Origin: a virus
Taxonomy: Duplodnaviria; Caudoviricetes
Reading direction: 5' to 3' (one strand)
Virus record (IMG/VR): IMGVR_UViG_3300014208_000014
Location: 1-41,498 of that record
Length of the DNA: 41,498 nucleotides
A model generated the notes under the pieces. The model worked only from the letters and a program-made list of their open reading frames with translations. It was not told the DNA's origin and did not search any database. Shown here piece by piece: positions 13,917 to 28,184 of this stretch. How positions within the stretch are numbered: position 1 is the first letter of the stretch; each line of letters starts with the position of its first letter. A program made the translations under genes and the position numbers.

Positions 13917-14132
13917 CTTCGGATTGGTTAGGGGATAAAAGCTCTTTCTGTGCTCTTTCTAGATTATCCATAACAAGTATGTTGTCAGTCTTCATTATCA
14001 GTCGGTGCAGAATGTCGCTTGCCCTAAGCCGTTCTTTTACTGTTGCCTCCTCCTGGGTGGTCGGCCATATAGGCCATAAAGGAGTGGAATTTTTCTGCTC
14101 TGGTCATTGTTGATTGGGTTATTGATTTAATT

Positions 14133-14398
14133 TGGTGGGTGCGGCAGGACTCGCACCTGCTTGATGAGATTTTATCAGCGAGCGACGCTGTTTATTTCCT
14201 CATACCACTTATCGGTGGCTCCACTCTCTTTCGGTTCACACCCATAGGTGAGCCTTTATACTCTGCTCGTGAGTGGAGGGGAGAGGCCAGATTGGTTACT
14301 GGCATTGAAGGTTATTTAGGGTCGCTTATTGTGCCGTCGCACAGCCTGGCGATTACACTACCTTCCTAGCACCCGTTCCGCCCTGCACATCTCTCCCC
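14133..14398 (-). ncRNA. Expanded tRNA-like structured RNA with encoded CCA end
   Basis: - strand 3' end GCAGG-TGCGAGT-CCTGC-CGCACCC-A-CCA (14160-14133); complementary GGGTGC at 14374-14369; multiple internal stems. Confidence 0.7.
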
Positions 14399-14406
14399 AT
14401 AATTTT

Positions 14407-14484
14407 CCAGTTCCAGACTCGGAAGGGCTAGATGATTCAGCAAGCTTTCGCTTGAAATGTTCCCCTCCGAAATCTGGTTACTGG
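14407..14484 (-). ncRNA. Long imperfect hairpin RNA capped by a GAAA tetraloop
   Basis: CCAGT/ACTGG, CCAGA/TCTGG and TTCGGAGGGG/CCCTTCCGAG stems plus CAAGC-GAAA-GCTTG. Confidence 0.55.
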
Positions 14485-14486
14485 TT

Positions 14487-14695
14487 TGCTGGGGCAGGGA
14501 TTAGAGCAAAAGGTGGGTGTCAGTACCCATAGGCAGCATTTTTCATCTGCTTTATTTTACTTCATTACCTGCACGAGGTTTTCTGATTTATGACCTCGAC
14601 CTATCCGTTGTATGTGACAGTGCCTTATAGAAACGGTTGTCATAAGGACGGAACCTTATTCATCGCCATTATAAGCTATATTCGTGCCACCCAGC
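14487..14695 (-). ncRNA. Expanded tRNA-like RNA with an enlarged T-loop
   Basis: GCTGGG-TGGC... 5' end; GCAGG T[...]AATC CCTGC-CCCAGC-A 3' end. Confidence 0.6.
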
Positions 14696-14714
14696 CCCTG
14701 ATTGTTAATTAACA

Positions 14715-27346: not shown

Positions 27347-28184
27347 AGTTGATTAATAGCTGATGGTATAATTAAGTTTGGGTATGTAACTAGCTAGTGT
27401 GTTACTAGACTAGCTATTAATCTGATTGTCAATGATCAAGGTATAGAGTGTGCAGGTGTTCCTTGTCTATAACTCCGTCAGGAGTGAAGCATAGAGTTGT
27501 ATAGGAAGTCAAGGGCAAAATATTATAAGAGTATGGGGCAAGGGACGGACAATGTAATATATTTTTTACAACTGTAACACCCTGTTACCACTGTTGTTAC
27601 CACTTTTCTGGCTTGTTCAAGCCTTTTCTCAATTGTGACAGTGTGTGACAGTTTTTTTTATATATATATAAGAATCAAGAGAATTTAATTACTCTTTTTT
27701 TTTATATATATATATAAAAAATAAAAAAACTATTGATTCATATATATATTTTTTTTTTGTTTTATTTAAGCCTAAATTCCTTGTCGTGTTATGGTAACAA
27801 GGGCGGTGTCTAGTGGTACTATGCCCTATTGATAAGCCGTTTTTTTTGAGCGCAAAGAAGTGTATGGGTCAAGAGAGCTTTTTTTGAAGATCTAATTTAG
27901 GGCTAAAGAAAGCGAAAAAATGCACTTTCTTCTCCCGTCTTTTGTCTATCTGCTGAGCTTTGCGGCTCATCTATGCTTTATAGTTATAAGGCTAAGATAG
28001 CTATAGTTGACTCTGGAATGGCTTATACAAGCCAATAGATAAAGTAAACCGATTGCGCGTGGTGGTATGAGTATAACTATCCCCCACCCTCTATATGAAA
28101 GTTTTAAGAGTAAAGTATATTTTTCTCAAAATTCCAAATTTTGTAAAGTGGAAAAAATGGATAGAAATTTTTTGAGGAGTAAAG
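27347..28184. other. Large non-coding region, candidate replication origin/packaging-initiation and divergent promoter region
   Basis: TGT(T/G/A)AC iteron-like repeats, (TA)n and poly-T tracts, a perfect 22-bp palindrome at 27699-27720; lies just upstream of terS. Confidence 0.55.

What the first reader, a model, noticed from the sequence alone, without database searches (positions are those of the whole stretch)
14133..14398. CCA-ending tRNA-like RNA with a ~200-nt multi-stem body and a non-canonical UGCGAGU T-loop
Seen on the - strand: the 3' end GCAGG-UGCGAGU-CCUGC-CGCACCC-A-CCA has exact tRNA geometry (5-bp T stem, 7-nt loop, 7-nt acceptor strand, discriminator A, CCA). Its partner GGGUGC lies ~230 nt upstream (14374-14369), preceded by a D-loop-like GGCGGAA. 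The interior stems are GAAGGU/ACCUUC, UGUGC-GACG-GCACA, GCCAG/CUGGC, CUCCACUC/GAGUGGAG, CCAC/GUGG, AUGAG/CUCAU and CAGCG/CGCUG, plus an alternative 8-bp GGGGAGAG/CUCUCCCC. I see no anticodon arm. Established: GUGC in place of GT-psi-C is a hallmark of non-proteinogenic staphylococcal tRNA-Gly, and G3:C70, U4:A69 and A73 are E. coli valine identity elements, which this stem would contain. Inference: a possibly chargeable tRNA mimic that does not decode mRNA.
Basis: partly seen in the sequence, partly recalled or inferred. Interest (0 to 1): 0.85.

Follow-up and report, generated by a model that had tools for sequence, protein, structure and literature searches.

The report
Tandem tRNA-shaped phage RNAs, uncatalogued family
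This stretch of a small phage genome holds two back-to-back tRNA-shaped genes that end in CCA but have no codon-reading loop, one carrying a bacterial tyrosine-tRNA end and the other an unusual loop shared with look-alikes in five other phages; they are likely cut out as stable RNAs that would act as decoys for host proteins that attack tRNA ends.

Summary
The 3' tRNA geometry and all listed stems are real, but the stretch reads best as two tandem CCA-ending RNAs, not one: X (14398-14274, 125 nt; 8-bp acceptor, U73, CCA, T-position loop UAACCAAU) and Y (14243-14133, 111 nt; 7-bp acceptor, A73, CCA). They are the only two such modules in the genome. Y's last 28 nt match Patescibacteria tRNA-Tyr(GUA) at 27 of 28, so the UGCGAGU loop is ordinary and the valine and staphylococcal-glycine arguments fail. 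Y has a 6-nt loop in the anticodon position and a 40-nt variable arm. X belongs to a family found in four uncultured phages and the cultured Brevundimonas phage Papperlapapp, with covarying acceptor pairs, a nearly fixed loop and free interiors; no Rfam match. Closest known: T4 rnaC/rnaD and T5 tRNA-like stable RNAs. tmRNA and intron readings did no better than shuffles; the phage has no integrase. Decoy function is inferred. The scan noted this general kind on other DNA, but not these sequences.

The parts
14274..14398 (-). Module X: 125-nt tRNA-shaped RNA gene, 8-bp acceptor + 5-bp stacked arm (8/5), U73, encoded CCA
   Evidence: Geometry scan, 0 of 5000 and 3 of 5000 shuffles; top hit, exact ends, of a model built without it (27.5 bits, E 0.0012)
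14391..14398 (-). X acceptor 5' strand, preceded by an AU-rich spacer with U at -1
14369..14388 (-).
   Evidence: in the MFE fold, absent from the centroid
14307..14365 (-). X 59-nt rod in the anticodon-arm position, capped by a GACG tetraloop hairpin; no anticodon loop
   Evidence: MFE, centroid and MEA folds agree
14286..14303 (-). X T-position arm, 5 bp with the 8-nt family loop UAACCAAU (14298-14291)
   Evidence: same loop in L240, L259, L280, L281a, L290; a 7-nt variant in L281b
14274..14285 (-). X acceptor 3' strand, U73 (14277) and CCA (14276-14274)
14244..14273 (-). 30-nt spacer between X and Y, ending in U at -1 of Y
   Evidence: unstructured by centroid, z -0.8
14133..14243 (-). Module Y: 111-nt class-II-like cloverleaf, 7-bp acceptor, A73, encoded CCA
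   Evidence: folds unforced, -38.5 kcal/mol, z -3.3 to -3.5; tRNA arm spacing in 1 of 2000 interior shuffles
14204..14219 (-). Y arm in the anticodon position: 5 bp, 6-nt loop CGAUAA, no U33
14164..14203 (-). Y 40-nt variable arm with an A-rich internal loop
14133..14160 (-). Y T arm, acceptor 3' strand and ACCA: 27 of 28 identical to Patescibacteria tRNA-Tyr(GUA) ends; identity starts exactly at G49
14407..14484 (-). 78-nt upstream hairpin that begins with the same 10 nt as X's T-position arm; role unexplained
   Evidence: z -5.25, 0 of 200 shuffles; direct repeat D5
14108..14714 (-). 607-nt gap without a likely minus-strand gene, near the end of the early operon, between a 59-aa ORF (14894-14715) and a 27-aa ORF (14107-14024)
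   Evidence: operon content

Best explanation
The stretch encodes two tandem tRNA-shaped, CCA-ending RNAs without an anticodon loop (X, 125 nt; Y, 111 nt), which are likely cut from the phage's early transcript like tRNAs and would then act as decoys for host proteins that recognise the acceptor end of tRNA. Shown by sequence and comparison: the two modules, Y's tRNA-Tyr-type top half, and X's membership of a recurring phage family that keeps only the acceptor helix, the stacked arm with its UAACCAAU loop and the CCA, while interior length (96-150 nt) and discriminator (U, A, G, C) vary. Inferred: transcription on the early strand; 5' cutting by RNase P at the U-1/G+1 junctions and 3' trimming to the encoded CCA; accumulation as stable RNAs, as T4 and T5 do with theirs. 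Inferred with least support: the target. A free discriminator argues against one shared amino-acid identity and for proteins that read the top half; tRNA-attacking defence effectors are my first guess (CCA-end modifiers for X; tRNA-Tyr variable-arm nucleases or TyrRS for Y). Step odds: two modules 0.8; expressed and processed 0.65; decoy role 0.35.
For: Only two acceptor + stacked arm + NCCA modules on both strands of the 41.5-kb genome, 30 nt apart; 0 of 5000 shuffles of 14405-14244 and 3 of 5000 of 14714-14244 give one. Of 46 viral loci with X's loop pattern, 4 have a 7-bp or longer acceptor partner against 0.81 expected; a fifth module turned up in L281 by geometry alone and a sixth in a cultured phage. 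Over 7 members, acceptor pairs 1-7 are paired in 49 of 49 cells, with four pair types at pair 5 and two at pairs 2, 4, 6 and 7. G422 carries three copies among real tRNA-Asn, -Pro and -Met genes. U at -1 in 7 of 8 modules. Y's end: 24 of 25 nt identical in 12 of 18 distinct tRNA-Tyr genes of this type; GGGUGUG is the natural 5' strand in 5 of them. G1-C72 and A73 are bacterial Tyr identity elements (PMC9976931, passages). Septu and retron-Eco7 cut the tRNA-Tyr variable loop (PMC13096335, passages); toxSAS modify the 3' CCA and are tied to phage defence (10.1101/2024.07.05.602228, abstract start).
Against: No expression data. No full-length homolog of Y. The three closest near-complete relatives (capsid 81, 61 and 59% identical) have neither module, and phage Marchewka has lost about 100 nt of the Papperlapapp element, T-position arm included, so these elements are dispensable. 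In the uncut 266-mer the lowest-energy fold (-91.8) buries X's CCA in an 8-bp helix with Y's D arm and does not form Y's acceptor. X's folding z is modest (-2.5 and -1.9). Four family members were picked for acceptor pairing, and four share one acceptor sequence, so there are only four independent acceptor types. The model's score is not decisive: an ordinary tRNA-Tyr scores 23.8 bits and a match inside an ORF 26.1 bits (L242). No defence system of the host was identified, and the host is inferred only from the tRNA end.
Confidence: 0.4

Rival explanations
1. Same two modules, but they are processing handles: RNase P and 3' nucleases cut at them to divide or stabilise the early transcript, and the released RNAs have no job of their own.
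For: All well-mapped members lie on the early strand between short genes; only the top half is conserved.
Against: A canonical T loop would serve RNase P better than a fixed 8-nt variant (recalled); G422 keeps three copies among tRNAs that already give cut sites.
Confidence: 0.2
2. Y is a decaying tRNA-Tyr or an attachment-site relic whose 28-nt end was copied from a host tRNA; only X is a maintained RNA.
For: Identity to tRNA-Tyr begins exactly at the first T-stem base, as expected for T-loop-type att sites (recalled, not from a call); relative G001 has a tyrosine integrase; Y has no homolog.
Against: No tyrosine or serine recombinase in this genome; no exact 23-nt match among the genome contigs; Y keeps a perfect 12-bp top half, tRNA spacing (1 of 2000) and two intact extra arms.
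Confidence: 0.15
3. The first reader's single 242-nt RNA, or a precursor that switches between that fold and the tandem fold.
For: Starting at 14374 the long-range acceptor forms with probability 1.0; energy beats 399 of 400 interior shuffles; the 5' part resembles a tRNA-Tyr 5' half.
Against: U7-C66 mismatch; it needs a 5' end inside module X and leaves X's 8-bp helix, its CCA and the family match unexplained; most of its stems are shared with the tandem fold, so its energy is not specific support.
Confidence: 0.12
4. The RNAs are aminoacylated and hand amino acids to a non-ribosomal process, or tie up synthetases (TyrRS for Y; a U73-reading enzyme for X).
For: Free NCCA ends; Y has G1-C72, A73 and a long variable arm; U73 with a long arm is SerRS-compatible in allo-tRNAs (PMC5389517, passages).
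Against: Discriminator and acceptor sequence vary across the family; no GUA anticodon in Y; no synthetase or transferase among 50 ORFs scanned.
Confidence: 0.1
5. An intron-split tRNA or a small tmRNA.
For: At relaxed thresholds ARAGORN calls a tRNA-Ile with a 164-nt intron and a tmRNA with a five-residue tag over 14374-14133.
Against: Shuffled interiors get the same calls at those thresholds (23 of 300 and 53 of 300); the spliced anticodon stem has mismatches; no RF00028, RF00005 or RF00023 match at E 10; no G3-U70.
Confidence: 0.03

Closest known systems
Phage T5 RNA2 and RNA1 ('tRNA-like stable RNA with unknown functions', AY543070)
   Same: RNA2 is 125 nt with acceptor helix, D arm, a long rod in the anticodon position and a stacked T arm, the layout of X; both lie among short genes and tRNAs.
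   Different: T5 RNAs keep a canonical UUC T loop; none matches the X-family model at E 5; X and Y encode full CCA ends; function unknown in both.
Phage T4 rnaD and rnaC (species 2 and 1 RNA, AF158101)
   Same: Two tandem 119- and 139-nt stable RNAs of unknown function at a tRNA cluster (PMC12685909, passages); rnaC has a T arm near its 3' end.
   Different: No match to the model; no UAACCAAU loop; the window's phage has no true tRNA genes.
Patescibacteria tRNA-Tyr(GUA) with UGCAAGU T loop (L219-L235)
   Same: Y's T arm, acceptor strands, A73 and CCA.
   Different: Y has a 6-nt loop without U33 or GUA, G57 for A57, a 40-nt variable arm and AA at 8-9. This end is a minority variant: 1 of 401 sampled genomes of the phylum.
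tRNA-Sec (8/5), allo-tRNAs and irregular tRNA polycistrons (PMC5389517, PMC7609411; passages)
   Same: X has a 13-bp 8/5 top half and U73; irregular tRNA-like sequences in polycistrons are described.
   Different: Those have anticodon loops; X has none, and most of its homologs are 7/5. Supplementary figure S6 of PMC5389517 was not seen.
YrlA-type bacterial and phage Y RNAs (RF02553; PMC4201824, passages)
   Same: Non-decoding tRNA mimics with D- and T-like arms.
   Different: YrlA is permuted, with a loop-closed acceptor, and lies beside Ro60; X and Y have free ends and 5 of 6 carrier records have no TROVE gene.

Membership tests
Canonical tRNA (RF00005) | 7-nt anticodon loop with U33 on a 5-bp stem | tested here: not met
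   Y: 6-nt loop; X: rod with a tetraloop
Canonical tRNA (RF00005) | Match to the tRNA model or a default ARAGORN call | tested here: not met
Canonical tRNA (RF00005) | 7/5 top half, discriminator and CCA | tested here: met
   Y met; X is 8/5
Bacterial tRNA-Tyr | G1-C72 and A73 | tested here: met
   Y sequence; elements from PMC9976931
Bacterial tRNA-Tyr | GUA anticodon | tested here: not met
tmRNA (RF00023) | G3-U70 alanine pair | tested here: not met
   G3-C70 in X and Y
tmRNA (RF00023) | Model match and a tag frame better than chance | tested here: not met
Group I intron-containing tRNA | Intron core (RF00028) and a canonical spliced product | tested here: not met
YrlA / Y RNA | Permuted tRNA domain with closed acceptor | tested here: not met
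   free 5' and NCCA ends; no RF02553 hit at E 10
YrlA / Y RNA | Adjacent Ro60 (TROVE) gene | tested here: not met
   none in the window's genome; only the 357-kb phage has one, about 280 kb away by record coordinates
attP of a tRNA-integrating phage | Identity block covering a host tRNA 3' end | tested here: inconclusive
   27 of 28 to tRNA-Tyr ends, one mismatch inside the T loop; true host unknown
attP of a tRNA-integrating phage | Integrase gene | tested here: not met
T4/T5-type tRNA-like stable RNAs | tRNA-like ends without a decoding loop, in or like a tRNA array | tested here: met
T4/T5-type tRNA-like stable RNAs | Accumulates as a stable processed RNA in infection | not testable with these tools
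   no RNA holder listed
T4/T5-type tRNA-like stable RNAs | Sequence homology to rnaC, rnaD or T5 RNAs | tested here: not met
Non-proteinogenic staphylococcal tRNA-Gly | Gly anticodon and loss of EF-Tu determinants at T-stem pairs 49-65 and 51-63 | tested here: not met
   no Gly anticodon; Y's T stem equals that of tRNA-Tyr genes; definition from PMC9976931

The most novel reading that the evidence does not exclude
The UAACCAAU family is a widespread class of RNA anti-defence factors: uncharged tRNA top-half decoys that soak up CCA-end toxins, here paired with a tRNA-Tyr decoy whose 40-nt variable arm baits Septu-type nucleases, with both ends held shut in the precursor by an 8-bp helix until processing releases them.
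Probability: 0.15. Interest if true: 0.85.

Novelty: new variant of a known kind. Interest (0 to 1): 0.52.

Why it matters
T4 and T5 have carried annotated tRNA-like stable RNAs of unknown function for decades. This finding adds a family with a recognisable signature (acceptor helix, 8-nt UAACCAAU loop, NCCA) that tRNA finders and Rfam miss, shows which surface is conserved, and includes a copy in a cultured phage with a known host (Brevundimonas phage Papperlapapp), where expression, processing and deletion can be tested. If these RNAs are decoys they would be an RNA-only counter-defence. The finding also corrects a tempting rule: a UGC T loop marks many ordinary phage and Patescibacteria tRNAs, not non-proteinogenic ones.

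Tried and rejected
Rfam at gathering and at E 10: nothing relevant for the window or for the homolog modules. blastn of the region against cultured phages hit only tRNA 3' ends; X against plasmids gave nothing useful. A profile of 52 tRNA-Tyr 5' halves found neither candidate 5' half, although the anchored pairwise test did pick 14374. The two short matches to G001 lay inside a coding gene. Neighbouring proteins found no relatives in viral contigs. The interior had no match in 401 sampled Patescibacteria genomes (incomplete genomes, not proof of absence). L242 was dropped from the family because it lies inside an ORF; 41 other loci lack an acceptor partner. The model found no further member in 187 other loci. 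The 14698-14488 stretch is no better folded than shuffles (z -0.6), so a single 570-nt ornate RNA was dropped. An ARAGORN tRNA-Leu in G003 lies inside a long ORF. Promoter scan: 3 sites against 2.0 expected. No RNA holder listed. Alignment A2 was misaligned at the 5' end and A4 contains an antisense hit; neither was used for pair counts. Literature: no description of the family in searches; a recalled paper on group I introns in Patescibacteria tRNAs was not found. Cluster look-up gave no host names.

Full report
Setting. The window is a complete 41,498-bp phage record with direct terminal repeats, with terminase, portal, amidase and an early minus-strand operon (primase-like protein, Gam-like protein, phosphoesterase, RuvC-like resolvase). 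It has no tRNA, tmRNA or Rfam match at default settings. The two runs that hold it are groundwater metagenomes and may be its source; their contigs show no differing letters. The finding lies in a 607-nt gap, 14714-14108, near the end of the early operon.

Observation. The 3' end is as described, and a strict T-arm + CCA pattern that occurs once here occurred once in all of 300 shuffled windows. The listed stems appear in the folds. From 14243 the 111 nt fold unforced into a four-arm cloverleaf (z -3.5) with tRNA arm spacing reached by 1 of 2000 interior shuffles, though 3.8% of those shuffles match its energy. A scan of both strands for acceptor helix + stacked arm + NCCA finds exactly two modules, X (14398-14274) and Y (14243-14133); 0 of 5000 shuffles of 14405-14244 and 3 of 5000 of 14714-14244 contain one.

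What Y is. A pattern with its T loop and a CCCACCA end gave 58 viral loci, of which 39 are ARAGORN tRNAs (29 Tyr, 4 Lys, 3 Phe, 2 Leu, 1 Val) and 19 uncalled, several of these visibly Tyr genes. In metagenome contigs 10 of 25 loci were tRNA-Tyr and 9 tRNA-Lys; one (L201) is this genome's own record; in genome contigs 13 of 20 were tRNA-Tyr, mostly from Patescibacteria bins. Of 18 distinct genes of this type, 12 match 24 of Y's last 25 nt up to A73, and identity stops at G49; three genomes match 27 of 28. Ten of the 13 genome loci have tRNA-Thr(GGU) next door, often with tRNA-Trp, which I take as the housekeeping operon (order recalled). So the loop is ordinary and the identity is Tyr-type (G1-C72, A73; PMC9976931, passages), not Val. 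No exact 23-nt match exists in the genome contigs, and only 1 of 401 sampled phylum genomes has this end within one mismatch. Y cannot decode: 6-nt loop, no U33, no GUA. No full-length homolog was found; L158 (115 nt) has a similar layout with another sequence.

What X is. A pattern built on X's loop and end gave 46 viral loci; 4 have a 7-bp or longer acceptor partner against 0.81 expected: L240 (96 nt), L280 (121), L281a (104), L259 (145, 9/4 or 8/5). L281 holds a second module (113 nt, 7-nt loop) found by geometry, and its contig has three copies, two of them identical, among tRNA-Asn, -Pro and -Met. A model built from four of these, without X, ranks X first in the window with exact ends (27.5 bits, E 0.0012) and Y third (13.5 bits, E 0.61), and finds an unannotated 150-nt member upstream of two tRNA-Pro genes in Brevundimonas phage Papperlapapp (28.7 bits); its end reads as 7 bp + C + CAA or as 7 bp followed directly by CCA. 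The loop pattern came from X, so that part of the score is circular, and an ordinary tRNA-Tyr reaches 23.8 bits; the case rests on loop, geometry and pairing together. Across the 7 members acceptor pairs 1-7 are all paired, with compensatory changes at five positions among four independent acceptor types; the stacked arm has one mismatch in 35 cells; discriminators are U, U, A, A, A, G and C. The carrier contigs share almost nothing with this phage: two weak protein hits in G420, none in the other three. Rfam has no match.

Relatives. Capsid searches gave 43 proteins and 39 loci. The three closest near-complete genomes lack both modules; G004 has other, non-canonical tRNA-like pieces at the matching place; G001 is 81% complete and lacks this region. 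No integrase or resolvase is in the window's genome; G001 has a tyrosine integrase.

Rejected readings. ARAGORN's intron and tmRNA calls appear only at relaxed thresholds and as often in shuffled interiors; group I, tRNA and tmRNA models give nothing at E 10. YrlA fails on topology and Ro60. One reading that fits both is that X was inserted into, or recombined with, a tRNA-Tyr gene; I could not test this.

Mechanism. Shown: two modules, a Tyr-type end, a recurring family that conserves only the top half. Inferred: co-transcription, RNase P cutting at U-1/G+1 (U at -1 in 7 of 8 modules; the enzyme's preference is recalled; a 7-bp acceptor as RNase P determinant is stated in PMC4201824, passages), trimming to CCA, and stable accumulation as for T4 rnaC/rnaD and T5 RNA1/RNA2 (record annotations). 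Least supported: a decoy role against effectors that read acceptor ends (toxSAS; search listing and abstract starts) or the tRNA-Tyr variable arm (PMC13096335, passages, which itself suggests phage tRNA-Tyr may act as decoy or supplement). Processing handle, relic, single RNA and charged donor are the rivals.

Novelty. The kind is known; this family is not in Rfam 15 and I found no description in searches of a library that lacks most subscription papers. No supplements were read; figure S6 of PMC5389517 (irregular tRNA polycistrons) could bear on novelty. The scan's index has no look-alike of these sequences but many notes on other anticodon-less phage tRNA mimics. Verdict: real feature, reinterpreted; new variant of a known kind; interest 0.52.

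Noticed in passing
window 14407-14484 (-): Very stable 78-nt hairpin (z -5.25) starting with the same 10 nt as X's T-position arm; may be a third module or a protein-binding site.
   Followed up: partly
window 14133-14374 (-): AUAA occurs 6 times against 1.4 expected (1 of 2000 shuffles; chosen after seeing the sequence), mostly in loops.
   Followed up: partly
window 14240-14248 and 14525-14533: 9-nt direct repeat that includes the junction ahead of Y's 5' end; the upstream copy opens a small hairpin.
   Followed up: no
L117 3238-3685 (-), G004: 448-nt gap at the matching place in a related phage with two other tRNA-derived, non-canonical pieces, one with a T arm and 10-bp closing stem but no CCA.
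   Followed up: partly
L036 735-801, L143 and L189 617-683: 67-nt CCA-ending mini tRNA-like RNA without a D arm, recurring with small changes in several viral contigs.
   Followed up: no
L049 (54 nt ending at 825): 54-nt acceptor + one hairpin + T arm + ACCA minihelix-like gene.
   Followed up: no
L158 (115 nt ending at 712): Cloverleaf with Tyr-like acceptor, short anticodon-position loop and long variable arm; same layout as Y, different sequence.
   Followed up: partly
L292 about 508-546, phage Marchewka: The Papperlapapp element is reduced to acceptor strands, one hairpin and ACCA; about 100 nt are deleted.
   Followed up: partly
L218 250-430 (-): Saccharibacteria bin with two adjacent odd tRNA-like elements that share a T arm of this type and are not called by ARAGORN.
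   Followed up: no
L016, L021, L028, L030, L032, L033, L035, L040, L051, L065, L233: Apparently intact tRNA-Tyr genes with GAGAG-type D loops and UGC T loops that ARAGORN misses at default settings.
   Followed up: partly
L237 about 2075-2092, G001: Right after the integrase stop codon lies a 17-nt stretch resembling the D arm of some Patescibacteria tRNA-Tyr genes (seen by eye; may be chance).
   Followed up: no
window 27350-28120: AT-rich non-coding stretch with short repeats between divergent genes, a likely origin or promoter region.
   Followed up: no
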